This document shows, one piece after another, positions 3,835-53,097 of a stretch of 64,000 bases of DNA (positions are counted from its first letter, which is position 1; each line of letters opens with the position of its first letter). The position numbers were made by a program, and so were the translations under genes. The stretch is from Eledone cirrhosa. Its lineage: Eukaryota. The stretch is from NCBI GenBank assembly GCA_964016885.1, contig OZ024740.1:269328001-269392000 (forward strand), read 5' to 3'. A model generated the notes under the pieces. It was not told the origin of the DNA. It worked only from the letters and a program-made list of their open reading frames with translations, and did no database searches.

Positions 3835-4196
3835 CACACATATATATATATATACACACACCAAACACATATATGCATATTATACAAACACACGCATATA
3901 TATATATTTATATATATATATATGCGTGTGTTTGTATAATATGCATATATGTGCTGAATAAGACCCGTCCCACCCTTGCAAGCAGGGAAAAGCGGACGTA
4001 AAATGATGATGATGATGAATGATGATGATATATATATATAGACACACAAACACACGTACGCACATATATGCCTATATATACATACACATACATATATATA
4101 TCTTATACATACATACACATACACACTAAACATACGTATATATTATACTATACATATCCTGTACATACACATATATATATACACACATATATATAT

Positions 4197-4338
4197 ATAA
4201 CAAAGGAATTGTGGTAAGGAACCAGATGGACCATAACGCACCAGAGTACTCAATACTTAGGGTAGTAGAGTGGGAAATAGTCCAGAAATAGCTGTCGAAA
4301 CGGCTTGAGCTCTGCCGTCGGGGTCATACTTTTTCCTA
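4197..4338 (-). mobile_element. Short half-hammerhead element, copy 1 (one hairpin arm deleted)
   Basis: Reverse complement matches 45885-46075 and 15232-15400. Flanked by (TA)n. Confidence 0.75.
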
Positions 4339-4487
4339 TATATATATATATATATATATATCATATATATATATATATATATATCACATACATACCAATA
4401 TATATTTTCTACATACACACACACATACACATATATATATATATCAAAATGAAAATCCGAAGGCAAGGTAAAATTCCAATCATTTAA

Positions 4488-7135: not shown

Positions 7136-7314
7136 ACTCAAGTCTTTAAGTTCATATATACATTAATGAAATGTTATTGTACCTCTGAGGGTTTTACTGC
7201 ATCTACCAACTCATAATATTATAATATATTATAACATTAAATCATAAAATTGTTTAACACTACAAGTGAAGTCATTCTTTTCCTTTTTTTCAAATATATA
7301 AATATATATATATA

Positions 7315-8025: not shown

Positions 8026-8094
8026 TTTTAGTATACATTAAAAGATCTAGCAAACAATTTCTGCTTTCACCCTAAGAGGGTCATTCGAAACTAA

Positions 8095-8755: not shown

Positions 8756-8790
<35 letters not shown>

Positions 8791-9284: not shown

Positions 9285-9412
9285 AGTGTGTCCGTCAGAT
9301 GTATTATTGCATTTCAAGAATTACGAAGAATTTGCAAGTTACTTCATCCGGGGAGGATTAATAATAGCTTCACTAACCTCGGAGGACGATTTGTGTGCAG
9401 TATGTATGTGTC
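9285..9412 (+). repeat. About 125-bp direct repeat, copy 1 (copy 2 at about 10503-10630), flanking the 27-bp array; possible Helitron 5' region
   Basis: gtgtc.gt.agatgtattattgcatttca.gaattacgaagaatttgcaagttacttca..gggaggattaataat.gcttcactaac..gacgatttgtgtg occurs in both copies. Confidence 0.8.
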
Positions 9413-9433
9413 TATATATATATAAATATATAT

Positions 9434-10466
9434 CTTCGCGCATGCACAGTATGGACCGGCATTCGCGCATGCGCAGTACGGACGGGCCTTCACACATGCC
9501 CACTTTGGACCAGCCTTCGCACATGCGCACTTTGGATGAGCTTTCGTGCATGCGCACTTTGGACCAGACTTTGTGCATGCGCAGTACGGACCACCCTTTG
9601 TGCATATGCAGTATGGATCAGCTTTCGTGCATGTGCACTTCAGACCAGACTTCATGCATGTGCACTTCAGATCAGACTTTGTGCATGCACAGTATGGACC
9701 AGCCTTCACACATGCGCAGTACAGACCAGCCTTCGTGAATGTGCAGCCTGGACCGGCCTTTGCGCAATGCACACTTAGGACCAACCTTCGTGCATGTGCA
9801 GTACGGACCAGCCTTCGCGCATGTGCAGTACAGACCAGCCTTCGCGCATGCGCAGTACAGACCAGCCTTCATGCATGCACAGTACGAACCAGCATTTGAG
9901 CATGCACAGTCCGGACTGGCCTTTGCGCATGCGCAGTCCGGACCGGCCTTTGTGCATGCGCACTTAGGACCAACCTTCGCCCATGCACAATATAGACCAA
10001 CCTTCACGCATGCGCACTTCGGACCAGCCATCGCGCATGCACAAAGGCTGGTTCGAAGTGTGTGTGCGCGATGGCTGGTCCGAAGTGCGCATGCGTGAAG
10101 GTTGGTCTATATTGTGCATGCACGAAGGTTGGTCCTAAGTGCGCATGCGCAAAGGCCGGTCCGGACTGCGCATGCGCAAAGGCCAGTCCGGACTGTGCAT
10201 GCTCAAAGGCTGGTTCGTACTGTGCATGCATGAAGGCTGGTCTGTACTGCGCATGCGCGAAGGCTGGTCCGTACTGCACATGCACGAAGGTTGGTCCTAA
10301 GTGCGCATTGCACAAAGGCCGGTCCAGGCTGCACACACACTTCGGACCAGCCTTTGCGCATGCGCACTTCGGACCAGCCTTCGCACATGCACACTCCGGA
10401 CCCGACTTCGCGCATGTGCACTTCGGACCCGACTTCGCGCATGCGCACTTTGGACCAGACTTCGCC
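9434..10466. repeat. GC-rich 27-bp minisatellite (about 38 units; ggaccagccttcgcgcatgcgcactt[c/t]) with an internal inverted block
   Basis: Units are directly visible. Orientation flips at about 10040 and back at about 10335. Confidence 0.92.
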
Positions 10467-11217
10467 TATATATATGTCTATGTATGAATAGATATATTTG
10501 TGTGTGTGTCTGTTAGATGTATTATTGCATTTCATGAATTACGAAGAATTTGCAAGTTACTTCACCCCGGGAGGATTAATAATCGCTTCACTAACTCCGG
10601 AAGACGATTTGTGTGTGGTGTTGTATGTATGTGTGTGTGTATATATATAAATAAATATATATGTGTGTGTGTGTATATATGTATATATATATATATATGT
10701 GTGTGTCTGCATCAGACACACATTTATATGCTATTACATTTATATATATCTAATCAATGGGCATACAACAGTGCTTAATCTAAATTATAATAGGGTAAGA
10801 AGCGTGGGACTGCGTACGGTTAAGAATCTTTTATCCCCTTAGTAAAATAAGTTGGATTACTTTGAATAAATAATGAATTAATATTACATAATTTATCTAC
10901 TAAATTTCCTGGCTGTTCATTAAATATATTTTATTACTTATTTAAAGATTCACTTCTTTAACATTTTCAAATGTCAACACTTCCGGTTAGTGATCGTTTA
11001 AATAAATATTCATATATTTCTGTCACTAATCTTCTCCTAATGCAGTTTATATATAATATCGTCTTCTTGTAATGTATCATGGATTACGTTACTGATTACA
11101 TAAGACAGTGTAACACAGTCTCTCTTCAATTTCTGTGTGTATTGTCAATTACGATTTTATTTGATAATATCTAAATGGATATATACTTGCGTATAATATC
11201 AATATACACACTACACA

Positions 11218-12029
11218 AACTAGAAGAAAACCACCCGAAGGGTGGTTTTTCTGCTAGTTATATTAAGTTATATAGTTTAGATTAGTTTTAAAAAAAAAGA
11301 GTTAATAAATATATAAAATGTTATACTTGTTTTACCCTCCCATTTCCAATTAAACCGAATGCTATCATGACTGTATGTGTGTGTTTGTGTAAATGTATAT
11401 GTGTGAATGTATGTATGTTTGTGTGAATGTATGTGTATTTGTGTGAATTATGTCCCTGAGTGTGTATTTTTATAAGTTTGTGTTCGCTTCATAATAGTTA
11501 TACACTCATACATATATGTATGCATGTGCACACTCATACTCGGCAGTGTGTACAAAATCATTATCTCTCTATCGTTCTCATCACACACTCTCTCTTTCTA
11601 TATATATGGTAGTTGAAGTGGTGGTGGTGGCGACCATATACCGGAAGTGCAACTTTGAAAAGAAGTCAATTTTAGATTATTTATGTTTACGAAACTTATT
11701 TTCCTGAAACGCTGCCTAAAAAACGATGTCATCCCCAACACCATCAGGAACATCCGCTTACCAGTAAGCCTACGTACACCAGCTTTCCAAAACAGCACTA
11801 ACCGCATACATCGCACGTGTATTAAACAGATCCTGAGACATCTCAACCGCCAATTACACGTCCATAAGCGGACACATCGACTGCCAATAGCACCCGGGGA
11901 CTTGCTCCTGAAAATCACTAAAGCAATCGACCAGTGCTACCACTCCAGAATCCAATAACAGAAAAAACGCCTCAAGCGAAAATATGAGTGGATCTTGTCG
12001 AAACGCCACAACAGGAACATCGACACTAA

Positions 12030-12074
<45 letters not shown>

Positions 12075-12528
12075 TAACAGATTAAAGTTTAAGCAAAGAA
12101 TCGATGCTTTCAACCTTAACAGGATCTTTTGAAACTAAAAAAAATCAATCTGTGAACGCAGAAGTAAATATTTCGAAAAACGTTACACACTATATATATA
12201 TATATATACACGCGCACTATATATACATATATACACACACAGCGTCATAATGTCGTAATGCAGACAGCCAGACATACAGACAGATATTACAAGGGGGAAA
12301 CGTTATATCTATGTATCTATCTAAAAAGAAAGACTAAGAGAGAGAGAGAGAGATGGCTTTTTCGCCTAATGCGGTCCCTAGGGCATTGAAAATTCGAAAT
12401 AATTTTTGCTCAAAACACTCACAGGATCATAAGTATTACATGTGTAAATTTGAAAACAATCAGTTGGGTGGTTCTCGAGTTTTGGGGAGTCAGACAGACA
12501 GACACATTCTCTGTTTTAGATATATAGA
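11218..12528 (-). mobile_element. Putative non-autonomous Helitron
   Basis: Minus-strand 5' end TCTATATATCTAAAACAGAGAATGTGTCTGTCTGTCTG at 12528; 3' GC-rich hairpin ending in CTAG-T at 11218-11259. Continuity between the two ends is inferred. Confidence 0.55.
11670..12030 (+). mobile_element. Penelope-like element N-terminal ORF fragment
   Basis: ORF 11683..11958 LIFLKRCLKNDVIPNTIR matches the PLE N-terminal FL..C....vIP motif. Confidence 0.5.
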
Positions 12529-13039
12529 CTAGCAGAAAACCGCCCCCCGGGTGGTTTTCTGTTGGTATATATATATATTACACACACAGAAATGTATATA
12601 TATTTCTGTGTGTATATATATATATATATTACACACACAGAAATGTATATATATTTCTGTGTGTATATATATATATTTCTGTGTGTGTATATATATATAT
12701 ATATATTACACACACACAGAAATGTATATATGTTTCTGTAGCACTCCTCAATTCCCCCCTCTCCCCCTCCCGCTATCCCCCTCTTGTAGTCTGTCTCTTT
12801 CTTTCACTCTCACTCTCTCTCTACGCGTGCGCAAAAAACATTCGCACGCGCCCACGTGTTTTAGCGTCTATTCACTCTCTCCCTCTCGCTATCCCCCTCT
12901 CATAGTCTGTCTCTTTCTTTCACTCTCACTCTCTCTCTCTACGTGTGCGCAAAAAACATTCGCACGAGCGCACGTGTTTCCACTGTCGGACAGACAGATA
13001 GACAAACAGAGAAATTGCTGGTTATATATTATAAGGAGA
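12529..13039 (-). mobile_element. Putative non-autonomous Helitron, head-to-tail with the previous unit
   Basis: Minus strand starts A^TCTCCTTATAATATATAACC..GTCTATCTGTCTGTC. Ends with hairpin cagaaaaccaccc/gggcggttttctgCTAG directly abutting the TC of the next unit. Internal (TA/CA) and about 110-bp tandem repeats. Confidence 0.65.
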
Positions 13040-13327
13040 TTATTATTATTATTTGTTGGCCTTGTGCCAAAAGTAGAAACAATTATTATTTGTTTGTTAA
13101 AATCTGTTCATAGGAGTGGTACTAACTGAAACCATAAGGACGTAGTTGAAATTATTAAAGAATTATGTTAATAATCCCGCCGAGGTTGACTTTGCCTTTC
13201 ATCCTTACGGGGTCGATAAAATAAAGTACCAGTAATGCACTGGCCTTGTGCCTAAAGTAGAAACAATTATAATTATAACTTATAATTATAATGATTACTG
13301 TCAAGGTTATTTATAATAGGTATAATA

Positions 13328-13510
13328 AGGTGGTGGATTGGCATTATTAGTAGAGGGTCTGACGCCATGCTTCGGAGTATAGAGTTACGACCCTTTACGT
13401 TCTGAGTTCAAATCACTCTGGGGTTAACTTTGCCTTTCATCCTTATGGGGTCGATAAAATAAAGCACCAGTAATGCACTGTGATAATTGCTGGCCTTGTG
13501 CCAAAAGCAA
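13328..13510 (+). mobile_element. tRNA-derived SINE with Meta/MESC-type central domain
   Basis: Degenerate A box and B box (gagttcaaatc) followed by ggttaactttgcctttcatccttayggggtcgataaaataaagtaccag. Other copies at 13172-13272(+), 19890-20077(-), 28060-28178(-), 38138-38330(+), 40585-40785(-), 58870-59110(+). Confidence 0.75.
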
Positions 13511-14871
13511 AAACAAAATGGCCTAAGACAGAACAACAGAGAGACACCAAATAAAAACCCAGTCACTGAGGAGGTCATAGAATGTGTGACAAAAGAGCTT
13601 TGACAATATATAAACAACCAACTCGAAATTTATAATAAATTGAAGTGAACACCAACAGGTACATGTGTTTTTATTGGCAGCATGACCCTCCCAAAGTATA
13701 ACAATATTATTATTATTATTATTACTTATTTTTTTTATTAGTACTATTATTATAATCTTTCTTTATTAACTTCACCATATTTATAAATTAGCTTCCTAAT
13801 CATCATCATCATTATTATTATTATTGCAACAATGGGTCCACTGCATTATATTCTGAAAGTTATTATAATTATAATGATGACTATTATCATTATGGATATA
13901 ATTATTCATATAATTCTTTACTAATTTCAACTAAATCCTTATAGTTCCAGTTACTACCACTCCTATGAACAGATTTTAACATACAAATAATAAAAATTAT
14001 AATTATTTACTCATTTGTTTGCTTCTTTATTTGACCAAAACTAGTCATGCTTATAAAAAAGATTCTCTTTAGAATTACCCCCATCTTCCCTCAGTCTACA
14101 CAAATAAACCCTGCCTTCATCAGTCCCCTCTCAGGTACCACTAGCTTTCCATGCTTCTTCTCCTTTCCTTCTTCATCCCTAACCCAGTCTTTCTCTCCCT
14201 CCACCAATCCTCATTAATCAAGTGACTTTCCTCATTTCCTTCCCTTTCCTTCTTCTCATCTACCACCACTAGAGTTTCTTTGTTTGTTTAGAAAAACATG
14301 CAAAGCAATAGGGTTAAATTACCAAGGGGAATTGAGATAGAAAGCAAAATAAAGGAAAGGAAGAATGACTGTAAGTTATCATAGCAATTTGATATTCCCA
14401 CATATCTCAGACTAACCATCCATTACCAAGGAGAGGTCCATGGAGGGATGGGGCTTTGGAGAAAAAAAAAAACCTAGATTTTTCTTTCTGGTAGTCATTC
14501 ATTTTTATCTTGACTTTTCAGTTTCATATTCCACACTGCTTCAAGCAAACTATTCCACCCTACCCCATCCCCCCATTCCATCCAACAGTCCAAACTGTAA
14601 AGTGGCCATGTAAGGCTCCCAGTCCACACTGTAACTGTGGTTTCTGTTAGGAAGGGCAGCTGTAAAAATCCTGCCAGAGACACTTCCGTGCGAGTGAGAC
14701 AGTCTACCGACCATTCCCACATCAAATGGAACAAAACCGTCTAACCCATGTAGTATGGAAGATGGACATTAAACGATGATGATATTTATCAAATTAAAAA
14801 ATGGAGTTAAAGACTCACGTTAGTCTCCAATAATTTAATGAGCTCAAGGATTATATTGCGGGCTCTTTATA

Positions 14872-15230
14872 AATCAGTATATAGAGAGAAGTACATAAAG
14901 AGGTGTGTGTTTAATTATAGGGGATAGAAAACCACCAGAGTGAAGAACATATTGTCTATGAAAGGAAAAGAAAATACATATAGATTAAAATAATAAATCA
15001 AAATGTACTAACGATCTAATAATAACTATTACACCTGGGCATGCTCTAATCAGTGTATGTTTCACCACAAAAAGTGTAGATTCCATATTGTAGAGGGCTT
15101 GTCAACAGGTGGACTAAAATATGGTCCATACTTCTAAAAATATATCAGATAACTAAAATAATGTACATGGTTCTCTATCCCCTATGATTGAACACATACC
15201 TCTTTGTGTATTTCTCTCTATATACTGATA
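14872..15230. repeat. Element with about 62-bp imperfect terminal inverted repeats
   Basis: atcagtatatagagagaagtacataaagaggtgtgtgtttaattataggggatagaaaacca (14872-14935) pairs with 15168-15230. Confidence 0.7.
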
Positions 15231-15231
15231 A

Positions 15232-15400
15232 AATAGGAACAAGTAGGACCCCGACGGCTGAGCTCAAGCCGTTTCGACGGCTAATTCTGGACTGAATCAT
15301 CGAAACGGCTTGAGCCTATTACCCACTCTACTACCCTAAGTATTGAGTACTTTGGTGCATTATGGTCCATCTGGTTCCGTACCACATTTCCTTTGTTATA
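15232..15400 (+). mobile_element. Short half-hammerhead element, copy 2 (right arm partly deleted)
   Basis: Matches 45885-46075 with two internal deletions in the second hairpin arm. Confidence 0.75.
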
Positions 15401-15424
15401 TACTGATATATATATATATATACA

Positions 15425-15548
15425 TAATGTTTAATATAGAAATGGCTTCTACAGGACTAAAACCGTTTCATTCAACATGGCTTTCCTGATGATTTCCTTC
15501 GAATGAAACAGTTCTAGTCCTGCAGAGCTATTTCTGTATTAAACATTG
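15425..15548. repeat. Imperfect about 50-bp hairpin whose loop contains CTGATGA (degenerate HHR-derived fold-back)
   Basis: Arms 15425-15475 and 15498-15548. Plus strand reads ctttc CTGATGA tttccttcgaat GAAA cagttctag TC; proximal stem I is unpaired. Confidence 0.5.
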
Positions 15549-15586
15549 TATACTCTACATTGTATGGAGTACCTTACTTACTGTGG

Positions 15587-15950
15587 TTACCCCCAATTGA
15601 CCCTGGGATACACACACTCAGAGCAGGAAACCACCAATTGCAGGTTGAGGCAGACAGTCTCCACAGACACGCCCAGTGAGGCATCATCCAAGTACCAAAT
15701 GTTGAAGGGGACCAGGATATTCTGAGCAATGTTGTCTATACCAAGAGCAAAGAGGAGGGAGCCCAACAAGTTACCCTGTTGAACTCCAGTGGCTGAGGTA
15801 TGATCGTGTCAGCAGCAAGGAGCAGACTTGGGGTTTCATAGGGCAGGTAGGCCAACGAGTAGGCAGAGGAAGCTTGGCTGAGGCAGGCCACACACAGTTG
15901 GTCATGACATAAGTAGTTGAAGGCGTTCCTCAAGTCAGGCTTGGCAACAT
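15587..15950 (-). mobile_element. CRE-like non-LTR retrotransposon RT fragment (frameshifted)
   Basis: DLRNAFN ... GVQQG.LLGSLLFALGID..FNIWYLDD motifs across ORFs 15736..15990 and 15587..15769. Confidence 0.7.
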
Positions 15951-16009
15951 GTGGTAGTGTGTAAAGAACGTGTACACTCATTGTGTACACGTTCTTTACA
16001 CACTACCAC
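15951..16009. repeat. Perfect 27-bp-stem hairpin at the truncation point of the CRE fragment
   Basis: gtggtagtgtgtaaagaacgtgtacac-tcatt-gtgtacacgttctttacacactaccac. Confidence 0.9.
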
Positions 16010-16432
16010 TGAGTAGTGAGCGTTGTTACTCTGGAGTTCTCTGGAGTTTTGTCTGTTTATCACACACACACATACATATATATATATGCATATACACAAG
16101 TGGTCCTGTAGGTGTCATGGCAAAAAGTACCCAGCCCACATTGTAAAGTGGTCATGTAGGCATCATGACAAAAGTACCCAGTACTCACTGTAAATGAGGT
16201 TGGCAGTAGAAAGGGAATCCAGCTGTAGAAAACAAGCCAAAATCGGTTCTATATGACCTAACATTGCTCACAACAGGAAAACTCGTCTAACTCATACCAC
16301 CATGGAAAAATGGATGTTAAATGGTAATGATGATGATATACTGACATATACTTATATACATATATTCATCTTATGTATATATGCTCTTCGTGTTAACTTC
16401 CCTCCTCACTCCCTCTCGGAGTTCCTCTCTAC

Positions 16433-16468
16433 TTTCCTGATGAAGGACTTAAGCCTGAAACGTCAAAA
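16433..16468 (+). ncRNA. Minimal PLE-type hammerhead ribozyme
   Basis: tttc CTGATGA agg-acttaag-cct GAAACGTC aaaa. Canonical minimal GAAACGUC; first stem-I pair mismatched. Confidence 0.65.
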
Positions 16469-16554
16469 CCTCCCCCACTCCCACCAAGCGTGAAGCTAAT
16501 AACACTATGTACTACCGACACCTGCGTTTGTTTGTTTGTCCTTTTGAAATATAC

Positions 16555-16609
<55 letters not shown>

Positions 16610-16636
16610 CACACACACACACACACATTATATATA

Positions 16637-18351
16637 CAGGGTGCGGACGATATTTGTTCGCAGGATTACTGTAGTTTTATTATTTGTTCGCAGGATTACA
16701 GTAGTTTTATTTTTTAAGATATATTTATCAAACTTGGGTCAGTTTGTCTTCATGACTTGTTCTTTCGATCTCACTCGATAAACCCGCCATTGGCTTTGAT
16801 GACGGCCTCAAGGCGGCCTTGGAACCGGCTACAGGCCTTGGTCACTGTCCCCCTACATAGGCCCCTAAAGGCACTTGTGATCCTGGCCTTCAGATCGTCT
16901 TTCATATTGCAGCTAGATCTGATGGTGTCTCGTTCCACTGCGCCCTACACAACGAAGTCGAGGGGGTTGCAGTCAGGCGAGCTGGGAGACCAGATGTCAG
17001 GTGAAGTGTGGTTGACGAAGTTCTCTGACAGCCAGGCTTGGGTCTTTCGGCTGGTATAGCAGGGCGCTGAGTCTTGCTGCCACACGTATGGCCTACCTGC
17101 AGCTACCTGGTCGAACCAGGCTTTTACTACCTCGCTCAGAACGCAGATGTAGTCATCGGTGTTCAGCTTGAGGCCCTCAGGGAAGAAGTGAGGTGGCATG
17201 ACGTCACCTTCACTGCTGACGACACCTAAGACCAATGTTGTTGCTGGAAACTTTGTCTGCATGACTCTGGGCATGTCTTTGGATGAGACAGCGAGCCACC
17301 TGTTGTTCTGGGAGTTGATCTTCTGGTCCTTATTTGTCCTCCCGGTGCGGATTCCAAGAAGAACTCCATATCTCTTCCACAAATTTGGAGGTTCAAAATT
17401 ATTCATAATCAATTATTCTGAAAATAAATAATGGAAATATGATGCTTGTATACGAACAGCAATGCTACAAGGCAGTGAAACATGGGCATTACGTGCAGAG
17501 GATCTGCGCAGACTGGAAAGGAACGAAGCATGCATGCTCCGTTGGATGTGTAATAGTAATATACGTAAACGGCAAAGCATAAATGAACTAAGTGAGAAAT
17601 TAGGAATAAGAAGGATCAGATGCTGTTTACTTGAGAGAAGACTACGTTGGTATGGCCACGTGATGTGCATGAAAGACGACAGCTGTATAAATCAGTGCAG
17701 GGCGATCAAAATTGATGGTAGTTACGGAGTAGGTAGACCCAGAAAAACCTGGGATGATCTGATAAATTCCAACCTCTCAAAGACAATGTCACTGGACTGA
17801 GATCTTTGGCACTACGCAGTAATACAGAAGACCCGCCTTGCTTATGTACAAAGCGAAACCTACAGTCAGTAGGCACCTCTTAACCAAATATACACCACAA
17901 TCCACTACCCCTACCCTATCCTCCCACTCCCACCAACACCACCTTCTCTCTATAAAGTTGGTACCACAATATCCAGTCCAAATAAATGAGATAATGAGAT
18001 CGAGATTGTGTAGGTGTCACGAGAAAAAAACACACAGTCCACGCTGTAATGTGGTTGTGTAGGTAACACGGTAAAAAGTTCCCAGTTCCACACTGTAAAT
18101 GTGGTTGGTGTTAGGAAGGGCATCCAGCTGTAGAAAACCTGCCAGATAGTCCTATACGTGAGAGACACGGTCACGGTCACCCGACCAACCTTGCCTCAAG
18201 TGGGACAACTCCCATCTAACCCATGCTAGCGTGGAAAATGGACGTTAAGCGAAGATGATGATGATGATGATAGTCACTGCTTTTATGAAGACAAGAGTGA
18301 CAACGGAAGTAAAATTAACAGTTGAAAATTGCGAAAAATATCGTCCACACC

Positions 18352-21701: not shown

Positions 21702-21742
<41 letters not shown>

Positions 21743-21863
21743 GGAGGTGAGTTTTGTTGTAGTACAATAAAGCAATGCAGATATCGGATAAGAAGCACTC
21801 TACAGTTTGTAGGACTGGAGTATACATAATATAAGATCAAAAGATGGTTAAAGGAGTTCCATG

Positions 21864-21934
21864 TATTTTATTATGCGCATTTCAAAAACAAACATCATCA
21901 TGCAATAATATTTGTGTTTTCATCAGATAAAACA
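21864..21934 (-). ncRNA. Type-I hammerhead ribozyme (PLE pLTR)
   Basis: Inverted copy of 24901-24971. Confidence 0.8.
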
Positions 21935-22897
21935 GGAGAACATGATATGAAGGCTAAAAAACACTTGTGGATAGTGCAGTTTTAAATCAACATATGAAAA
22001 GTGGTTTTAGATTGATGTGTGATATTGGGAAAAATATTTTATTTAGAGAGGGGGGGTGGAAAGGATGAAAAAGGGGAGGAGATGAGAGGGAGAGATGGGT
22101 GATAGAGAGAAAGAAAGAGATAGTTTTTATAACTGAGAGGAGATATAATGTTTTACATAGAGAGGTTGAAAACCGTTGGAAGATAATGTATAAATTAAAA
22201 ATTTGAAATTAACGAAGGGAGGATATGTGCGAGGAAAGAATATTTTATTTATGGAGGGGGGGGGGCGGAAAGGATGAAAAAAGGGGGAGGAGATGAGAGT
22301 GAAGGTGGAGAGGGAGAGATGGGTGATAGAGAGAAAGAGATAGTTTTTATAACTGAGAAAAAGATATATTGTTTTACATAAATTAAAGGAATTTGAAAAT
22401 TAACGAAGGGAATTTATGTATGAAGATAGAGAGAAAAAATAATAATTGTGGATGAATATTCTAACGTCAAAAAAAGTGTGTGTTGATAAGTATTGTGGCA
22501 ATTTCAAAATTAACGAAGAGAAAAATTATTAAGGTTTGTATATTGAAGGAATTGATAATATATGCGAATAAAGAGTTAATGTATTAAGAATGAGTTCGTT
22601 GATGGGGAGAAAAAAAAAAAAAAAAAAAAAAAATTAAGGATGAAATTGAGATTAAAAAGATTTATGATAGAGAGAAAAAATAATAATGATTGCGGATGAA
22701 TATTCTAACGTCAAAAAAATAAATGTATATGTTATGAAGGATTTTACAAGGTGAAGATAGAATGAGGGTAATGAGTAAACAAGTATTATAGAGTGTATAA
22801 TGCCCTTTAAAGTAAGGTGGGAAGATGGGTATATTTTAAAGAGGTGTATGTATATGTGCCTTTGAGAAAAGATTCTAAATTGATAAAGAATTGAATA

Positions 22898-23955
22898 TTA
22901 ACTGTATACTTTGTGAAAAGTCCTATGGAATTTATGGAGGCAGATAGAAAATAAATCTGTACGTCTATTTATTATAGAATCTAGGTTAGAGATAATGGTA
23001 AATTTTTCATTTAGGCAGAGATTACAGATTTTAGATAGAGAGCTGTTCAAGTATGAGGATGCAGAAGAAACCTTCTTCCAAAAGATGGTATATTTAATGT
23101 TTTTGTCTTTTAAGGACCATATGAGTTCTGAGAGAGCAGTGTTGGTTCCTTTAAGTTTGTATTTGAAAGATGAATGATGATTATAGAGACGAGCTTTAAA
23201 AGAGGTGGAAGTGGAGCCAAAATAGGTGAAGGAATTGGTGCTAGTTATAATTTTACATTCATAAATTAAGTTCTTATCGAGACAATGGTTGTTGAGAGGA
23301 CATTTATTTTTAATGCGGCAGTTGCAATTAGAGAGATTATTAATGAGTGACCTAGTGTTATCTATAGAAGGAATTGGATTGGAGAAGTTGTTTGCGATAG
23401 GAATAATAGGAATAATAGTTTCTTGATTTAGAGTTGGATTATGAACATTTAGCGAAGTTGTGTTTGACGTTGTATTTGTGTTTACAGAAGTTAGCCTAGG
23501 GTTTACAATGAGGTCGGGAGTACTATTACTGTTATTATGAAATTCAATGTTGGAAGGAAGAGATTTAGTATTTAGTATTTTATTGTTGTGTTTAGAGATG
23601 ATGTTGGAAATATTGGAGGATGTAGAATAAGAAAATTTGATGGTGTGTTTGTTAAATATTTTACTATAGATATGTGAGGGAGGGAAGCATTTATTTAAGG
23701 CACTAAAAAATAATTTAGGAATATTGTTATTAATAGAGATGGAGAAAGGAGCATTATACCAGATTATGTTTTTGTATCTAGGTCTTTTATTAAAATTATT
23801 GGAATGATCATGATTAATTATTCTACTGTAAGTTTTTCTAGAATTTGTTTCTTTACTATATTTGATTTTATCTGGATAGCCGGCTTTAGAAAGTGCGTTA
23901 TTATAGTAATTGGCGTTAGCATCAAAGATGTTTTTATTAGAGGATATGTTAGATA
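22898..23955 (-). pseudogene. PLE ORF C-terminal half: thumb, Asn-rich linker, GIY-YIG endonuclease (no start codon, so absent from the ORF track)
   Basis: Manual translation: YNNALSKAGY..IIWYNAPFS..CFPPSHIYSKIFNKHTIKFSYS..CNCRIKNKCPLNNHCLDKNLIYEC..TYFGSTSTSFKARLYNHHSSF..TALSELIW..CNLCLNEK..CLHK..*. Confidence 0.9.
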
Positions 23956-23989
23956 TATTCTTTTTCCAATATTACTAACTATAGCATTC

Positions 23990-24268
23990 TTGGTGGAATT
24001 TATCGTGACGATGGACTCTTTACTATCCTAAATTGCAATATAGTTAACCTTAATATTATTAAGAACAATATACGTAATCTCTTTAACCAACATAACCTAA
24101 AAATTGAATTTGATAATAGTATCAAACTAGCTAATTTCTTGGATGTATCTCTTAATCTTGACACTGGCCTATATTACCCTTACCATAAAAACAATGAGAA
24201 CCTAAATTATGTTAACTTTAAATCTAACCATCCTACCAATATCAAGAATGCTATAGTTAGTAATATTT
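23990..24268 (+). pseudogene. PLE reverse transcriptase segment in inverted orientation
   Basis: GGIYRDDGL..NFLDVSLNL..YYPYHKNN..YVNFKSNHPTNIKNAIVSNI. The last about 25 nt overlap with the start of the minus-strand ORF. Confidence 0.9.
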
Positions 24269-24900
24269 AACTTCACATTATTTTTCTCAAATCCTTCTAC
24301 ACACAAACCTTAATAATTTTTCTCTTCGTTAATTTTGAAATTGCCACAATACTTATCAACACACACTTTTTTTGACGTTAGAATATTCATCCACAATTAT
24401 TATTTTTTCTCTCTATCTTCATACATAAATTCCCTTCGTTAATTTTCAAATTCCTTTAATTTATGTAAAACAATATATCTTTTTCTCAGTTATAAAAACT
24501 ATCTCTTTCTCTCTATCACCCATCTCTCCCTCTCCACCTTCACTCTCATCTCCTCCCCCTTTTTTCATCCTTTCCCCCCCCCTCCATAAATAAAATATTC
24601 TTTCCTCGCACATATCCTCCCTTCGTTACTTTCAAATTTTTAATTTATACATTATCTTCCAACGGTTTTCAACCTCTCTATGTAAAACAATATATCTCCT
24701 CTCAGTTATAAAAACTATCTCTTTCTTTCTCCCTATCACCTATCTCTCCCTCTCATCTCCCCTTTTTCATCCTTTCCACCCCCCCTCTCTAAATAAAATA
24801 TTTTTCCCAATATCACACATCAATCTAAAACCACTTTTCATATGTTGATTTAAAACTGCACTATCCACAAGTGTTTTTTAGCCTTCATATCATGTTCTCC

Positions 24901-24971
24901 TGTTTTATCTGATGAAAACACAAATATTATTGCATGATGATGTTTGTTTTTGAAATGCGCATAATAAAATA
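24901..24971 (+). ncRNA. Type-I hammerhead ribozyme (PLE pLTR)
   Basis: tgttttat CTGATGA [aaacacaaatattatt-gcat-gatgatgtttgttttt] GAAA tgcgca TA ataaaata. Palindromic stem III. Confidence 0.82.
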
Positions 24972-25039
24972 CATGGAACTCCTTTAACCATCTTTTGATC
25001 TTATATTATATATATATATTCATACATATATATATACAT

Positions 25040-32743: not shown

Positions 32744-35190
32744 ATGGTGGTGGAACAGTAAGGTGGAGGAGTCAATTAAGGCCAAAAAGCAGGCTTGGAA
32801 AGTATGGCGGGATGGGGGAAGTAGAAAAGACTATCAAGTGGCCAGGAGGGAAGCTAGGAGACAAGTGTACTTCGCAAGAAGGGAAGCAGAGGAAAGAAAG
32901 TTCAAGCATGTTCACAACGTGAGGACCAAAAACGTGAGGTGTTCAGGATTGCTAGGCAATGTGTCAAGGAAAACCGTGATATTGTCGGGGAGAAGTGTGT
33001 ACTTAATGATGATGGCGTACTTTCCATCACTGACGCTGATAAGAAGGTAGCTTGGAAGTGTCACTACGAAAGGCTTTTAAATGAGGAGAATAAATGGGAG
33101 AAAGACAGTCTCCCCCACATCGACCCAATAGAGGGACCGGCAGTGTTAGTCGAAGGTAGTATAATAAGTAAGGCAATCAAAGATATGAAGATGGGTAAGG
33201 AAGCTGGGCCTTCGGAAATAGTTGCTGAGATGCTGAAAGCCTCTGGAACGGTGGGATACACCATGGTCACCCGGATAGTAAACCAAGTCATACAGAATGG
33301 GGTTGTTCCGAAGGACTGGCGTAGCAGCATCATCATTAACTGTTACAAGGGTAAAGGAGATGCCCTAGAAAAGAGTAACTATAGAGGCATTAAATTAATC
33401 GACCAGGTCATGAAGGTCACGGAAAAAGTAATAGCGCAACTAATCAGAGAGAGAATTGATCTAGATGAAATGCAGTTCGGTTTTGTGTCAGGCAAAAGTA
33501 CCACATACGCTCTTTTCATTGTACGACAACTACAGGAGAAGTACCTAGCTAAAAGTAAACCCCTATACTTAGCTTTTGTTGACTTGGAGAAAGCCTTCGA
33601 CAGAGTCCCCCGTTCAATTATCTGGTGGGCTCTTAGAAAACTAGGTGTTGACGAATGGCTTGTGAGAGCTATACAAGCCATGTATAAAGAAACAGTCAGC
33701 AAGGTTAGAATTAACAACGAATATAGTGAAGAGTTTAGTGTAAAAGTTGGTGTTCATCAGGGCTCTGTTCTTAGCCCCCTACTATTTATTATTGCCCTTC
33801 AGGCCATAACAGTGGAGTTCAAGACCGGCTGCCCATGGGAACTCCTATACACAGATGATCTAACGCTCATAACTGAATCAATGGCCGAGCTAGAGAAGAA
33901 ATTCCAAACATAGAAGCACGGCCTAGAATCAAAAGGCCTTAAAATTTACCTGGCTAAGACTAAAGTTTTAGTTTGTAGGAAAGAAAATAAGGCGCCGGTC
34001 CCTTCCGGGAAATGGCCATGCTCAGTGTGTAGGAAAGGCATAGGTAGAAACTCCATTTTATGTCCCAAATGCAAAGTATGGGTGCATAAAAGATGTAGTG
34101 GGATCACAGGTAAGCTAACTAAGAACATAGATTTTACATGTGGCCGGTGCTCTGGTGCAATAAGTAACAGCAAGTGCCCAAAAAATACTAGCTCTTTCAA
34201 TTGCGCAGAGGGTTCTATAGAAATAGTGGACAGCTTCCGTTACCTGGGTGACAAAATCAGCAGTGGGGGAGGGTGCTCTGAAAGTACAGTAGCTAGAGTC
34301 AGAACTGGATGGAAAAAGTTCAGAGAGCTTATACCACTATTAGCCGCTAAAGGGTTCTCCCTAAAAATGAAAGGCAGGTTGTATGATGCCTGCATACGAA
34401 CAGCAATGTTGCATGGCAGTGAAACCTGGCTATTGTGTGCAGAGGATATACGCAGACTAGAGAGGAACGAAGCTTGCATGCTCCGCTGGATGTGTAATAG
34501 TAATATACGTGAACGGCAAAGCATAAACGAACTAATGAACAAATTAGAAATAAGAGGGATCAGATGTTGTTTACTCGAGAGAAGGCTACGTTGGTATGGT
34601 CACGTGATGCGCATGAAAGACGACAGCTGTATAACAAAGTGCAGGGCAATAAAGATAGACGATAGCCACGGAGTAGGCAGACCCAGAAAAACCTGGGACG
34701 AGCTGATAAATTCCGACCTCACACACTTACACCTCTCCAAGACAATATCACTGGACCGAGACCTTTGGCGGTACTCAGTAATAGAGAAGACCCGCCTTAC
34801 CTAAATACAAAGTAAAACCTACTACAGTCAGTAGGCATCTCTAACAAAATACACTCCCGTCCCACCTCCCCCACCCCATCCACACCGCCCCTTTCAATGT
34901 AAAGTTATGTTGGTGCCACAACATCCAGGCCGAAACAAATGAGATCGTGTAGGTATCACAACAAAAAAACACACAGTCCACGCTGTAATGTGGTCGTGTA
35001 GCCAACACGGTAAAAACCTCCCAGCCCCACACCGTAAATGTGGTTGGTGTTAGGAAGGGCATCCAGCTGTAGAAAACCCGCCAGACAGTCCTATGCGGGC
35101 AAGACAATCACTCTTGCCTCAAGTGGGAAAACTCCCGTCCAAACCCATGCAGGCGTGGAATACGGATGTTAAACGATGATGATGATGATG
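32744..35190 (+). mobile_element. 5'-truncated young RTE LINE (frameshift and stop)
   Basis: ORFs 32763..33050, 32939..33913 and 34025..34804 are near-identical to the full copy; (GAT)n tail. Confidence 0.95.
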
Positions 35191-42918: not shown

Positions 42919-45151
42919 CATCATCATCAACGTTTAACGTCCGTGTTCCACGCTTGCATGGGTTTGGACGGGGGTAGTCCCACTTGAGGCAAGAGTGATT
43001 TTCTTGCTCGCATAGGACTGTCTGGCAGGTTTTCTACAGCTGGATGCCCTTCCTAACACCAACCACATTTACAGTGTGGGTCTGGGAGGTTTTTACCGTG
43101 TTGCCTACACGGCCACATTACAGCGTGGACTGTGTGTTTTTTTGTCGTGACACCTACACGATCTCATTTGTTTCGGCCTGGATGGCGCGGCACCAACATA
43201 ACTTTACATAGAACGGGGTGGTGTGGATGGGGTGGGGGTGGTGGTGGTGGGACGGGGTGTATTTTGTTAGAGATGCCTACAGGCAAGGCGGGTCTTCTCT
43301 ATTACTGAGTACCGCCAAAGGTCTCGGTCCAGTGACATTGTCTTGGTGAGGTGTAAGTGTGTGAGGTCGGAGTTTATCAGCTCGTCCCAGGTTTTTCTGG
43401 GTCTGCCTATTCCGTGGCTACCGTCTATCTTTATTGCCCTGCACTTTGTTATACAGCTATCATCCTTCATGCGCATCACGTGTCCATACCAACGTAGCCT
43501 TCTCTCTAGTAAACAACATCTGATCCCTCTTATTTCTAATTTTTTCCTTAGTTCGTTTATGCTTTGTCGTTCACGTATATTACTATTACACATCCAGCGG
43601 AGCATGCAATCTTCGTTTCTCTCTAGTCTGCATATATCCTCTGCATACAATGCCCAGGTCTCACTGCCATGCAACATTGCTGTTCGTATGCAGGCATCGT
43701 ACAGCCTGCCTTTCATTTTTAGGGAGAACCCTTTAGCGGCTAATAGTGGTATAAGCTCTCTGAACTTTTTCCACCCAGTTCTGACTCTAGCTACTGTACT
43801 TTCAGAGCACCCTCCCCCACTGCTGATTTTGTCACCCAGGTAACGGAAGCTGTCCACTATTTCTATAGAACCCTCTGCGCAGTTGAAAGAGCTAATATTT
43901 TGTGGGCACTTGCTGCTACATATTGCACCAGAGCACCGGCCACATGTAAAATCTATGTTCTTAGTTAGCTTACCTGTGATCCCACTACATCTTTTATGCA
44001 CCCAAACTTTGCATTTGGGACACAAAATGGAATTTCTACCTACGCCTTTCCTACACTCTGCGCATGGCCACTTCCCGGAGGGGACCGCCGCCTTATTTTC
44101 TTTCTTACAAACTAGAACTTTAGTCTTAGCTAGGTTAATTTTAAGGCCTTTTGATTCTAGGCCGTGCTTCCATGTTTGGAATTTCTTCTCTAGCTCGGCC
44201 ATTGATTCAGCTATGAGCGTTAGATCATCTGCGTATAGGAGTTCCCATGGGCAGCCGGTCTTGAACTCCACTGTTATAGCCTGGAGGGCAATAATAAATA
44301 GTAGGGGGCTAAGAACAGAGCCCTGATGAACACCAACTTTTACACTAAACTCTTCACTATATTCGTTGTTAATTCTAACCTTGCTAACTGTTTCTTTATA
44401 CATGGCTTGTATAGCTTTCACAAGCCATTCATCAACACCTAGTTATCTAAGAGCCCACCAAATAATGGAACGGGGGACTCTGTCGAAGGCCTTCTCCAAG
44501 TTGACGAAAGCTAAGTATAGGGGTTTACTTTTAGCTAGGTACTTCTCCTGTAGTTGTCATACAATGAAAAGAGCGTCTGTGGTACTTTTTCCTGACACAA
44601 ACCCGAACTGCATTTCATCTAGATCAATTCGCTCTCTGATTAGTTGCGCTATAACTTTTTCCGTGACCTTCATGACCTGGTCGATTAATTTAATGCCTCT
44701 ATAGTTACCCCTATCTAGGGCATCTCCTTTACCCTTATAAGAGTTAACGATAATGCTGCTGCGCCAGTCCTTCGGAACAACCCCATTCTGTATGACTTCG
44801 TTGACTATCCGGGTGACCATGGTGTGTCCCACCATACCAGATGCCTTCAGCATCTTGGCAACTATTTCCGAAGGCCCAGCCGCCTTGCCTGTCTTCATAT
44901 CTTTGATTGCCTTACTTATTATACTACCCTCGACTAACACTGCTGGTCCCTCTATTGGGTCGATGTGGGGGAGACTGTCTTTCTCCCATTTATTCTCCTC
45001 ATTTAGTAGCCTTTCATAGTGACACTTCCAAGCTACCTTCTTATCGGCGTCGGTGTTGGCAAGTATGCCGTCATCGTTAAGTACACACTTCTCCCCGACA
45101 ATATCACTGTTTTCCTTGACACATTGCCTAGCAATCCTGAACACCTCACGT
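42919..45151 (-). mobile_element. 5'-truncated young RTE LINE
   Basis: ORFs 43267..44421 and 44557..45264; collinear with about 50852-53097 in reverse. Confidence 0.95.
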
Positions 45152-45469: not shown

Positions 45470-45826
45470 GATATTTTAGTAAGTAAGTTAATTTTATAAT
45501 TTTCTTATCTTACGTCTCTTATATTATTGTTCTGCAACCCCATGCATTGAACCACAATGTTATTAAGACAAAACCTATATATTTGCTAGCATCGATATGC
45601 ATTTGTATGTATATATATGTTACTAGATATAAATTCTTTATTATATATACACATATATATATATATACATATATATACATATACATATATATACATATAC
45701 ATATATATACATATACATATATATACATATACATATATATACATATACATGTATATACATATACATATATATACATATATATACATATACATATATATAC
45801 ATATATATACATATACATATATATAC

Positions 45827-45884
<58 letters not shown>

Positions 45885-46075
45885 GAACCAGTAAGACCCC
45901 AACGGCTGAGCTCAAGCCGTTTCGACGGCTAATTCTGGACTGAATTAGCCGTCGAAACGGCTTGAGCTCAGCCGTCGGGGTCTTACTGGTTCCTATTACC
46001 CACTCTACTACCCTAAGTATTGAGTACTTTGGTGTGTTATGGTCCACCTGGTTCCTTACCACATTTCCTTTGTTA
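45885..46075 (+). mobile_element. Short half-hammerhead fold-back element, copy 3 (complete 51-bp hairpin)
   Basis: 45885-45935 pairs with 45942-45992 (1 mismatch), followed by an about 80-bp shared tail. Inside (TA)n. Confidence 0.8.
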
Positions 46076-49380: not shown

Positions 49381-52300
49381 TGTGGACCAATCATAAGCCA
49401 GAGCCCCCACGCACCACCATTATTATTAAGTGGACCAATCATAAGCCAGAGGCCTATACTATCGCTTGCCTGGTTGCCTTTCGATATATGATGGATGGAT
49501 GGACTACGGAATCCTGGAGAGTGGAAGAGAGAAAAATCTGGACGCTCAGCGACAATGCCAAAGATAAAGACAAATTCGCCTCGTGGACGAGAATGCGAGC
49601 ACTCCTCTTTGTTTCGGCCGCGGATGGCTAACATAAACCCATCTCTCCCCCGCTCCCACCCTCCAAACGCAATCTAAAACTTCAGAGTTGGTACCATAAA
49701 TGTAGGCACCTTAAAGGGTCGCTCTAACGAGGTTGTAGAAATGCTTGACTGTAAGGAGGTCGATGTTTGTTGTATTCAAGAGACCAGGTGGAGGGGTGGG
49801 TCTGCTAGATTCATTCAAACGATGCTATAAGCTTTTCTGGGTGGGAAATGACGATGGGCTGGGTGGAGTAGGTATCATGGTAGCAGAAAAGTGGGCAGAT
49901 AAGATAATAGACGTAAATAGAGTGAACGACAGAATAATTAAAATAAGACTTGTCCTCAATAGAACTACGGTGACAGTAATATCTGCGTACGCACCCCAAT
50001 CCGGACTGCCCGGCACTATAAAAGACAGATTCTATGAGACACTGATGCTCACTACCTCCCAAATAACCGACAGTGACTATATAATTATTGCAGGCGATCT
50101 AAATGGTCACGTTGGACAACATTGTGACGGCTACGACGAAATCCATGGAGGCTATGGGTTTGGTACTAGAAATGAGGAAGGCTCCAGAATCCTGGAATTC
50201 TGTGACGCAAATAACCTAACTATCTGCAACACTAACTTCAAAAAACGTGACAATCACCTGATCACCTATAGATCCGGGGAACACACAAGCCAGGTACATA
50301 CCAGCCAGGTAGATTATATCCTTACCAGAAGACGTGACAGAGTGTCTGTTGTAAACACTAAATCCCTCCCCCATGAAGAATGCACCTCCCAACATAGACT
50401 GATAATTAGCGACCTCAGAGTCAGGACGAGACGTACTCGACAGCAGAAGAGGACTATCCTCAGGAGAAAAATATGGAAGCTAAAGGACCCCACAGCCAGA
50501 AATAAATTCCAAAGCATATTACTTGATGCTTTCGACAGTAAGGAAGGGTATTTAGAGTCGGACAATATAGAGGGACAGTGGGAATTCCTGAAGGCAAACC
50601 TGCTGATGGCGGCAGACGAAGTCTGTGGCTGGAGCAGGCCTGTAGGCAGGAGGAGAGTAACATGGTGGTGGAACAGTAAGGTGGAGGGGTCAATTAAGGC
50701 TAAAAAGCAGGCTTGGAAAGTATGGCGGGATAGGGGAAGTAGAGAAGACTATCAAGTGGCCAGGAGGGAAGCTAGGAGACAAGTGTACTTCGCAAGAAGG
50801 GAAGCAGAGGAAAGAAAGTTCAAGCATGTTCTACAACGCGAGGACCAAAAACGTGAGGTGTTCAGGATTGCTAGGCAATGTGTCAAGGAAAACCGTGATA
50901 TTGTCGGGGAGAAGTGTGTACTTAATGATGATGGCGTACTTGCCATCACTGACGCTGATAAGAAGGTAGCTTGGAAGTGTCACTACGAAAGGCTTCTAAA
51001 TGAGGAGAATAAATGGGAGAAAGACAGTCTCCCCCACATCGACCCAATAGAGGGACCGGCAGTGTTAGTCGAAGGTAGTATAATAAGTAAGGCAATCAAA
51101 GATATGAAGATGGGTAAGGCGGCTGGGCCTTCGGAAATAGTTGCTGAGATGCTGAAAGCCTCTGGAACGGTGGGACACACCATGGTCACCCGGATAGTAA
51201 ACCAAGTCATACAGAATGGGGTTGTTCCGAAGGACTGGCATAGCAGCATCATCATTAACTGTTATAAGTGTAAAGGAGATGCCCTAGATAGGAGTAACTA
51301 TAGAGGCATTAAATTAATCGACCAGGTCATGAAGGTCACGGAAAAAGTAATAGCGCAACTAATCAGAGAGAGAATTGACCTAGATGAAATGCAGTTCGGG
51401 TTTGTGTCAGGCAAAAGTACCACAGACGCTCTTTTCATTGTACGACAACTACAGGAGAAGTACCTAGCTAAAAGTAAACCCCTCTACTTAGCTTTTGTCG
51501 ACTTGGAGAAAGCCTTCGACAGAGTCCCCCGTTCCATTATCTGGTGGGCCCTTAGAAAACTAGGTGTCGACGAATGGCTTGTGAGAGCTATACAAGCCAT
51601 GTATAAAGAAACAGTGAGCAAGGTTAGAATTAACAACGAATATAGTGAAGAGTTTAGCGTAAAAGTTGGCATCCATCAGGGCTCTGTTCTCAGCCCCCTA
51701 CTATTTATTATTGCCCTTCAGGCTATAACAGAGGAGTTCAAGACCGGCTGCCCATGGGAACTCCTATACGCAGATGACCTAACACTCATAGCTGAATCAA
51801 TGGCCGAGCTAGAGAAGAAATTCCAAACATGGAAGCACGGCCTAGAATCAAAAGGCCTTAAAATTAATCTGGCTAAGACCAAAGTTCTAGTTTGTAGGAA
51901 AGAAAATAAGGCGGCGGTCCCTTCCGGGAAGTGGTCATGCTCAGTGTGTAGGAAAGGCGTAGGTAGAAACTCCATTTTGCGTCAGAAATGCAAAGTATGG
52001 GTGCATAAAAGATGTAGTGGGATCACAGGTAAGCTAACTAAGAACATAGATTTCACATGTGGCCTGTGCTCTGGTGCAATAAGTAGCAGCAAGTGCCCAC
52101 AAAATACTAGCTCTTTCAACTGCGCAGAGGGATCTATAGAAATAGTGGACAGCTTCCGTTACCTGGGTGACAAAATCAGCAGTGGGGGAGGGTGCTCTGA
52201 AAGTACAGTAGCTAGAGTCAGAACTGGATGGAAAAAGTTCAGAGAGCTTATACCACTATTAGCCGCTAAAGGGTTCTCCCTAAAAACGAAAGGCAGGTTG

Positions 52301-53097
52301 TATGATGCCTGCATACGAACTGCAATGTTGCATGGCAGTGAGATCTGGGCATTGTGTGCAGAGGATATACGCAGACTAGAGAGGAACGAAGCTTGCATGC
52401 TTCGCTGGATGTGTAATAGTAATATACGTGAATGGCAAAGCATAAACGAACTAAAGAAAAAATTAGAAATAAGAGGGATCAGATGTTGTTTACTCGAGAG
52501 AAAGCTACGTTGGTATGGACACGTGATGCGCATAAAAGTCGATAGCTGTATAACAAAGTGCAGGGCAATAAAGATAGACGGTAGCCACGGAATAGGCAGA
52601 CCTAGAAAAACCTGGGACGAGCTGATAAACTCCGACCTCACACACTTACACCTCTCCAAGACAATGTCACTGGACCGAGACCTTTGGCGGTACTCAGTAA
52701 TAGAGAAGACCCGCCTTACCTAAATACATAGTAAAACCTACTACAGTCAGTAGGTATCGCTAACAAAATACACCCCTGTCCCACCACCGCCCCCTTCTAT
52801 GTAAAGTTATGTTGGTGCCACAACATCCAGGCCGAAACAAATGAGATCGTGTAAGTGTCACGACAAAAAAACACACAGTCCACACTGTAATGTGGCCGTG
52901 TAGGCAACACGGTAAAAACCTCCCAGACCCACACTGTAAATGTGGTTGGTGTTAGGAAGGGCATCCCACTGTAGAAAACCTGCCAGACAGTCCTATGCGA
53001 GCAAGACAATCACTCTTGCCTCAAGTGGGAAAACCCCCATCCAAACCCATGCAAGCGTGGAACACGGACGTTAAACGTTGATGATGATGATGATGAT
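49381..53097 (+). mobile_element. Near-full-length RTE-clade LINE
   Basis: 5' region with a short direct repeat, APE + RT ORF, about 370-bp 3' UTR and (GAT)n tail. Confidence 0.97.
49495..52723 (+). pseudogene. RTE ORF: APE endonuclease, RT, PHD-like C4HC2 finger
   Basis: APE start (FRVGTINVGTL..VCCIQETRW) is in frame with 49495 but follows TAA at 49675 and shifts frame near 49815 into ORF 49745..52723 (SAYAP, GDLNG, DYIL, QH; YADD; CxxC..CxxCxxWVHxxC..CxxC). Confidence 0.9.

What the first reader, a model, noticed from the sequence alone, without database searches (positions are those of the whole stretch)
45885..46075. Multicopy 'half-hammerhead' fold-back element: catalytic strand replaced by the mirror image of the substrate strand
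Seen: a 51-bp hairpin whose core is stem II-like (gacggctaattc-tggact-gaattagccgtc), followed by GAAA, a stem III (cggct-tgagctc-agccg), the GUC triplet and ggggtcttac. Where CUGANGA should sit, the sequence is the reverse complement of that 3' half. Three copies (4197, 15232, 45885) share the same tail, so the rearranged form itself appears to have spread. Inference: reverse transcription snapped back in stem II of an HHR, creating a new mobile unit that shows a GAAAC..GUC substrate half on both strands. It could be cleaved in trans by the parental ribozyme or act as a dsRNA/siRNA source against the parent family.
Basis: partly seen in the sequence, partly recalled or inferred. Interest (0 to 1): 0.75.

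Follow-up and report, generated by a model that had tools for sequence, protein, structure and literature searches.

The report
Twin-primed Penelope stubs split a hammerhead
This DNA hairpin is one of more than eleven thousand miniature, head-to-head insertions of a Penelope-type jumping gene, likely made when both ends of a cut TA repeat each copy the gene's RNA back to its start, which is predicted to lie inside a self-cutting ribozyme, so these stubs likely record how such elements insert.

Summary
The 51-bp hairpin is real and carries the 3' half of a hammerhead. The parent exists: a Hydra-type Penelope-like element (PLE) whose hammerhead core is UUGAGAA (U3:A8), not CUGANGA. The fold-back is not a mobile unit and not a snap-back. 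There are 11,031 exact fold-backs. 55 sampled ones have 43 different centres. The tail-less arm reaches further 5' in 10 of 23 clearly asymmetric cases, so neither arm is a copy of the other. Arms end at the same two 3' sites as long coding copies and stop 5' at one point, A+1 of T(T/C)AGT, often with one extra non-parental G. Best reading: two cDNAs, primed from both ends of a cut (TA)n, run to a capped transcription start inside stem II and are joined head to head. Inverted copies, tails and U3:A8 cores are published; the cap-limited stubs and a start inside the ribozyme were not found in my searches. No RNA data. The scan found this before on other DNA of this genome.

The parts
45885..45941 (-). 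Tail-less arm: begins at parent position +1 (A of AGTCC, the inferred transcription start, at 45941) and ends at the first fixed 3' site next to (TA)n
   Evidence: end site shared with long copies
45942..46075 (+). Tail-bearing arm: begins at parent +7 and ends at the second fixed 3' site (about +140) next to (TA)n
45946..45981 (+). 3' half of a type I hammerhead: stem II 3' strand, GAAA, stem III, predicted cleavage after C 45976, stem I 3' strand
   Evidence: parent fold; pair counts; coordinates
45993..46075 (+). About 80-nt PLE 'tail', present on one arm only; in the tandem parent it continues into the 5' UTR and ORF
45633..45884 (.). (TA)n-rich target, left flank (right flank starts at 46076)
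   Evidence: all 30 top hits lie in or beside (TA)n
4194..4339 (.). Second insertion: tail-only arm (minus strand, 4194-4280) joined by microhomology to a tail-less arm from +1 (plus strand, 4279-4339); no hairpin
15232..15402 (.). Third insertion: complete tail-less arm (minus strand) plus tail arm with internal deletions (plus strand)

Best explanation
The hairpin is a stub-sized, head-to-head insertion of a Hydra-type Penelope-like retrotransposon, likely made by two separately primed cDNAs that each ran to the predicted capped 5' end of the element's RNA. Shown: the parent is a 3.1-kb unit with a 718-aa RT + GIY-YIG-type ORF whose pseudo-LTR holds a type I hammerhead with a long stem-loop II. 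Short and long arms end 3' at the same two sites (about +60 and +140). Most arms stop 5' within a few bases of A+1 in T(T/C)AGT inside that stem-loop, often with one extra non-parental G. Inferred: A+1 is the Pol II start of the internal promoter (AT-rich TATA-like box at -29, initiator-like motif), so the mRNA begins with half a ribozyme and cannot self-cleave there in cis. The endonuclease cuts (TA)n; the two free ends prime at the two internal start sites; when these are the 5'-proximal copies, both cDNAs reach the cap after about 60 and 140 nt and are end-joined with trimming or small inserts. Priming at the 3' pseudo-LTR gives the long inverted, coding copies. The stubs are mostly dead ends.
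For: Parent and tandem-plus-inverted structure. Survival cliff genome-wide: 35,137 arms at +8, 17,300 reach +1, 5,136 reach -7, 4,220 + 1,560 carry the core strand near -45 (patterns not fully nested). Of the first 100 arms, 81 stop within 11 nt of the +8 anchor, 17 reach the core, and 91 end at one of the two 3' sites. Depth on public contigs jumps about 20-fold at the same place (run X1, possibly the same sample). De novo origin: 43 centres in 55 fold-backs, five mirror-image centre pairs, the same centre in several subfamilies; arms of one insertion differ by 0.88 of 40 nt against 2.76 between insertions (51 of 55). Twin priming: tail-less arm longer in 10, tail arm longer in 13 of 23 asymmetric cases. 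Extra G: 336 against 179 for A (about half of the first 100 A rows are A-runs; in the same partner context 13 G against 1 A per first 100 rows, by eye); 825 further cases, preceded by target (TA)n or partner arm rather than by a fixed exon. A second family stops 30 nt below a TATAAATA box, upstream of its core; 32 of 38 arms are short and 10 show an extra G. Literature: both-strand extension and two internal start sites (PMC11167929), internal promoter in the pseudo-LTR (PMC2377424), reverse-transcribed cap (PMC2912911).
Against: No RNA was seen, so the start site, the cap and cleavage are all inferred from DNA. The 5' ends are spread from -4 to +8, and some arms carry up to 4-7 parent-like bases beyond +1, which needs start heterogeneity or chance matches. 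The TATA-like box varies between subfamilies (TATTTAAA, TATTTATT, TATTCATA). The G-versus-A ratio is only 1.9 before context is considered, and C and T could not serve as controls because they are parental. Samples come from the first 26 Mb of one contig and from exact-match (young) copies. Second-family hits were picked with a query that itself began at +1. Pfam and PDB give no hit for the ORF; no tree was built.
Confidence: 0.8

Rival explanations
1. One cDNA stalls in stem-loop II and snaps back on itself at each insertion.
For: The turning point is in stem-loop II, where the parent has a weak inner hairpin; the two arms of an insertion share variants.
Against: A snap-back copy can hold only what the first arm holds, yet the tail-less arm reaches further 5' in 10 of 23 asymmetric cases, in the finding's own copy and in copy 4197. 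Single arms joined to (TA)n stop at the same base with an extra G. The second family turns upstream of its core. The RT has already passed stems III and II before the stop.
Confidence: 0.07
2. The fixed 5' end is real but comes from RNA processing (splicing, nuclease cut or a non-canonical ribozyme cut) rather than from transcription initiation.
For: The site resembles a splice acceptor (pyrimidine tract plus AG), and PLE 5' UTRs can carry introns (PMC2377424, PMC8557442).
Against: No common upstream exon follows the extra G. 0 of 263 arms start at the predicted hammerhead cut at +42 (sample biased towards arms that carry the +8 anchor). The second family has a TATA box at exactly -30.
Confidence: 0.07
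3. The fold-back arose once or a few times and spread as its own non-autonomous unit (SINE- or retrozyme-like).
For: Very high copy number; some centres recur; earlier scan notes report RNA-edited fold-backs copied back to DNA (not seen here); one local inverted duplication of a junction.
Against: 43 centres in 55 copies, mirror centres, each subfamily making its own fold-backs; the short arm ends at the site also used by long coding insertions.
Confidence: 0.05
4. A MITE or other DNA transposon with terminal inverted repeats.
For: Inverted repeat, TA target, high copy number.
Against: The repeat is not terminal (one-sided tail), the centre is variable, and the sequence is the pseudo-LTR of an RT-encoding element.
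Confidence: 0.01

Closest known systems
Hydra clade of C-terminal EN+ Penelope-like elements (Craig et al. 2021, PMC8557442; its supplement lists Hydra-1_Obim)
   Same: DKT, CxCX5C linker, CxxC and CxH around the conserved E and N, single ORF, (TA)n target, partial tandem plus inverted 5'-truncated copy, one-sided tail.
   Different: Hammerhead core is U3:A8 or C3/A8 rather than canonical; tail about 80 nt rather than 30-40; most insertions are 200-bp stubs ending at one 5' point. Identity with Hydra-1_Obim was not tested.
Poseidon PAc in vitro mechanism (Frangieh et al. 2024, PMC11167929)
   Same: Both target strands extended, two internal RT start sites that define the tail, hammerhead cleavage not needed for insertion.
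   Different: The sections read do not describe head-to-head joining at a capped 5' end, or a transcription start inside the ribozyme.
PLE hammerheads including the U3-A8 core variant (Cervera and de la Pena 2014, PMC4209133)
   Same: Type I topology in the pseudo-LTR, U3-A8 covariation, near-palindromic loop III; they also saw pairs of motifs 100-700 bp apart on opposite strands.
   Different: Here helix III is stable (5-6 bp) and loop II is about 40 nt and carries the inferred core promoter, so stubs hold only half the motif.
L1 twin priming and reverse-transcribed caps (PMC2912911, passages)
   Same: Two primers on one RNA give an inversion; an extra 5' G marks full-length cDNA.
   Different: L1 primes at the poly(A) end plus a random internal site; here both starts are fixed and internal and the arms overlap, giving a hairpin.
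Non-LTR retrozymes (bioRxiv 10.64898/2026.07.22.740005, first fifth of the text)
   Same: Short non-coding, PLE-derived, hammerhead-related repeats.
   Different: Retrozymes are head-to-tail tandems with complete hammerheads; these are head-to-head stubs without a catalytic strand.

Membership tests
EN+ Penelope-like element (parent) | Single ORF with RT and C-terminal GIY-YIG endonuclease | tested here: met
   718-aa ORF with YRDD and VIY..YIG motifs; 2,054 homologues, best one with Pfam GIY-YIG above cut-off; the ORF itself has no Pfam or PDB hit
EN+ Penelope-like element (parent) | Pseudo-LTRs from partial tandem, inverted 5'-truncated copy, one-sided tail | tested here: met
   L137, L143 and other loci
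Hydra clade | DKT motif, CxCX5C linker, CxxC and CxH in the endonuclease | tested here: met
   HSDKTG, CNCPDRSIC, CNLC, CKH in the ORF against section 11 of PMC8557442
Hydra clade | RWK motif and length under 3 kb | tested here: inconclusive
   RWR instead of RWK; repeat unit 3,118 bp; the paper says 'generally' under 3 kb
Hydra clade | (TA)n insertion preference | tested here: met
Hydra clade | Canonical CUGANGA hammerhead | tested here: not met
   U3:A8 (4,220) or C3 with A8 (99 of the first 100 of 1,560 rows)
Hydra clade | Placement in the clade by RT phylogeny; absence of CCHH | not tested
   no reference sequences were available as tool data
Type I hammerhead ribozyme (parent) | Three helices around the core, G10.1-C11.1, GAAA, UH triplet | tested here: met
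   minimum-energy fold is the hammerhead but z only -0.46; 95.9% of cells paired in 21 copies, only 2 two-sided changes, copies selected on the core pattern
Type I hammerhead ribozyme (parent) | Self-cleavage | not testable with these tools
   needs an in vitro assay
Type I hammerhead ribozyme (fold-back stub) | Catalytic strand (positions 3-9) | tested here: not met
   absent from all three window copies
Non-LTR retrozyme | Head-to-tail tandem units, each with a complete hammerhead | tested here: not met
MITE / DNA transposon | Terminal inverted repeats, constant interior, transposase partner | tested here: not met
   one-sided tail, variable centre, RT-encoding parent

The most novel reading that the evidence does not exclude
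This PLE family has its core promoter inside loop II of its hammerhead, so every mRNA starts with a disarmed half-ribozyme while only the 3' read-through copy can fold a whole one. Tens of thousands of cap-limited twin-primed stubs are a genome-wide fossil record showing that PLE inverted repeats and tails come from two cDNAs primed on both ends of one cut, and they map PLE transcription starts without RNA data.
Probability: 0.6. Interest if true: 0.65.

Novelty: new variant of a known kind. Interest (0 to 1): 0.5.

Why it matters
How PLEs make their tandem and inverted ends is described as undefined in PMC8557442, and has been studied in vitro for one element (PMC11167929). More than 11,000 near-identical stubs give a natural data set that separates twin priming from snap-back and points to the capped start. 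They also show that a subfamily predicted to have a dead ribozyme core (C3 with A8) still spread and carries the same tag as many fold-backs, so cleavage looks dispensable. Such stubs would be mis-annotated as MITEs, and as thousands of near-perfect hairpins they could supply double-stranded RNA.

Tried and rejected
Rfam on the window and on the parent: no hammerhead hit. Canonical-core pattern with a 30-nt gap: 24 matches, mostly junction or chance sequence, and too short a gap for the real parent. Sequencing-run search: no RNA holder listed; contigs from organisms B and C gave only 3 and 4 pieces and were not used. Pfam and PDB searches of the ORF were blank. A first pair count was mis-registered and redone. 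The 'same subfamily tag' count included undefined tags and was replaced. One search counted overlapping loci twice and was replaced. The bacterial promoter scan is not relevant to an animal genome. A-to-G editing: none of 263 arms had 4 or more A-to-G changes against the reference copy; the T-to-C excesses listed look like subfamily differences. Twin bulged hairpins just beyond the two 3' end sites fold in two of three stretches (z -2.0 and -1.5) and not in the third: inconclusive. Splice-acceptor, MITE, retrozyme and clonal-unit readings were rejected as given under rivals. Literature searches found no paper on cap-limited head-to-head PLE stubs; the library lacks most subscription papers, and bioRxiv supplements were closed.

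Full report
Observation. The sequence at 45885-45992 is a 51-position hairpin (one mismatch) followed by an 83-nt tail, set in (TA)n. It folds at -116.9 kcal/mol as RNA, z -17.5. The other two window copies share the tail but differ: 4197 has no hairpin and 15232 has deletions. The genome is a 3.0-Gb assembly rich in TA microsatellites and LINE ORFs, so an animal by inference.

Copy number. An exact 25-mer from the arm occurs 35,137 times and the exact fold-back 11,031 times (reversed-pattern controls 0). All 30 best hits lie in or beside (TA)n, with the same outer ends and different centres.

The parent. Seven of the first 30 arm loci continue 5' into a common sequence. It supplies stem I, a core UUGAGAA and the 5' strand of stem II, then about 40 nt of loop. 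The minimum-energy fold of a natural copy (L137) is a type I hammerhead, though not more stable than shuffles. In 21 copies 95.9% of cells pair, with little covariation. The U3 core has 4,220 matches. A C3 form has 1,560, and 99 of its first 100 rows keep A8, which breaks the 3-8 pair; single changes of that pair abolish cleavage in PMC11167929, so this form is predicted inactive. Its commonest tag (10 of 25) is also found on 9 of 55 fold-back tail arms. Longer loci carry an ORF of 718 aa with RT and GIY-YIG-type motifs and the Hydra-clade signatures DKT, CxCX5C, CxxC and CxH. L137 has the layout of Fig. 2 of PMC8557442: inverted truncated copy with tail, pseudo-LTR, ORF, pseudo-LTR without tail.

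De novo, not clonal. 55 non-redundant fold-backs with one tailed arm, from the first 26 Mb of contig 1, have 43 centres. Five centres occur in both orientations relative to the tail, and recurring centres cross subfamilies. The two arms of one insertion are closer to each other (0.88 mismatches in 40 nt) than to other insertions (2.76); four copies with indels were dropped. Of the first 100 exact arms, 91 end 3' at one of two sites, in short and long arms alike.

Two cDNAs, not a snap-back. A snap-back copy can contain only what the first cDNA contains, so the tailed arm would always have to reach at least as far 5'. Instead the tail-less arm is longer by 3 nt or more in 10 cases and the tailed arm in 13 (p 0.68). 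The finding's own copy and copy 4197 are of the first kind. This matches the in vitro result that a PLE protein cleaves and extends both target strands and starts at two internal sites that define the tail (PMC11167929).

What fixes the centre. Arms fall from 35,137 at +8 to 17,300 at +1 and 5,136 at -7, then stay level to the core strand (patterns not fully nested). In the 100-arm sample 81 stop within 11 nt of the anchor, 17 reach the core and 2 stop between. Position +1 is the A of T(T/C)AGT, which resembles the initiator consensus (recalled), with TATTTAAA at -29 in the reference copy; that box varies between subfamilies. A non-parental G often precedes +1: 336 against 179 A in one context and 825 in another, where by eye about 20 of the first 100 rows have target (TA)n directly before the G, 12 have the partner arm, and three loci have the G on both arms. 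No fixed exon follows, which argues against splicing. An extra G is the known mark of a reverse-transcribed cap (PMC2912911). A second family (window 15419-15552) behaves alike but starts 30 nt below TATAAATA and upstream of its canonical core: 32 of 38 arms are short and 10 show GGG by eye (L228 dropped as a duplicate). So the turning point follows the promoter, not stem II. No arm of 263 starts at the predicted ribozyme cut.

Mechanism. Shown from DNA: parent, two 3' sites, one 5' cliff, independent arms, extra G. Inferred: a capped mRNA starts inside stem-loop II and so begins with half a ribozyme; start sites at about +60 and +140 exist at both ends of the mRNA; use of the 5' pair yields stubs and use of the 3' pair yields long inverted copies; the two cDNA ends are joined with trimming, microhomology or short inserts. 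In a cofold the parental catalytic strand rebuilds a hammerhead with a lone half (-29.3 kcal/mol) but does not invade the fold-back, so trans cleavage is possible for the mRNA 5' end but unlikely for fold-back RNA. The siRNA idea is untested.

Comparison. Known: inverted truncated copies, tails and (TA)n targeting (PMC8557442), U3-A8 cores and opposite-strand motif pairs (PMC4209133), internal promoter in the pseudo-LTR (PMC2377424). Not found in six searches: cap-limited head-to-head stubs, or a start inside the ribozyme. What I saw: PMC8557442, passages, section 11 and supplement rows; PMC11167929, parts 1-2 of 4; PMC4209133, parts 1-2 of 4; PMC2377424 and PMC2912911, passages; the retrozyme preprint, part 1 of 5.

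Earlier scan notes, opened after my reading was recorded, describe the same interpretation on other DNA of this genome. They are not counted as support. Two claim that a minority of arms end at the ribozyme cut, which I did not see in this family (biased sample).

Verdict. A real feature and a new variant of known PLE insertion structure. Interest 0.5.

Noticed in passing
window 15419-15600: Second fold-back family with a complete canonical hammerhead core; arms stop 30 nt below a TATAAATA box, often with an extra G
   Followed up: partly
window 21741-25010: Another PLE with inverted 738-bp arms, tail on one side, canonical minimal hammerheads facing outward and a broken RT/endonuclease ORF related to the parent
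   Followed up: partly
window 8103-8429: Fragment related to the parent ORF's RT-to-endonuclease region (37% over 112 aa)
   Followed up: no
window 2185-2825: 654-bp near-perfect palindrome (93%) in (TA)n, probably another head-to-head PLE insertion
   Followed up: no
L231-L255: Subfamily of about 1,560 arms with C3 and A8 in the hammerhead core, predicted inactive yet amplified, including paired inverted long copies
   Followed up: partly
L033, L045, L047, L050: Arms of this family joined at +1 to other sequences that carry CUGANGA motifs, possibly template switches between PLE families
   Followed up: no
L083:1170-1640 and L164:340-850: An inverted local duplication of one unusual junction, and three tandem tail-less arms within (TA)n; re-mobilisation, microsatellite rearrangement or assembly error not distinguished
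   Followed up: no
L137:3104-3225: Two similar small bulged hairpins just beyond the two fixed 3' end sites, a lead from earlier notes; folding support is weak
   Followed up: partly
window 9388-10498: Array of 27-bp repeats with inverted parts
   Followed up: no
window 32858-34804, 43267-45151, 49739-52723: Several young copies of a LINE, one with a 994-aa open frame
   Followed up: no
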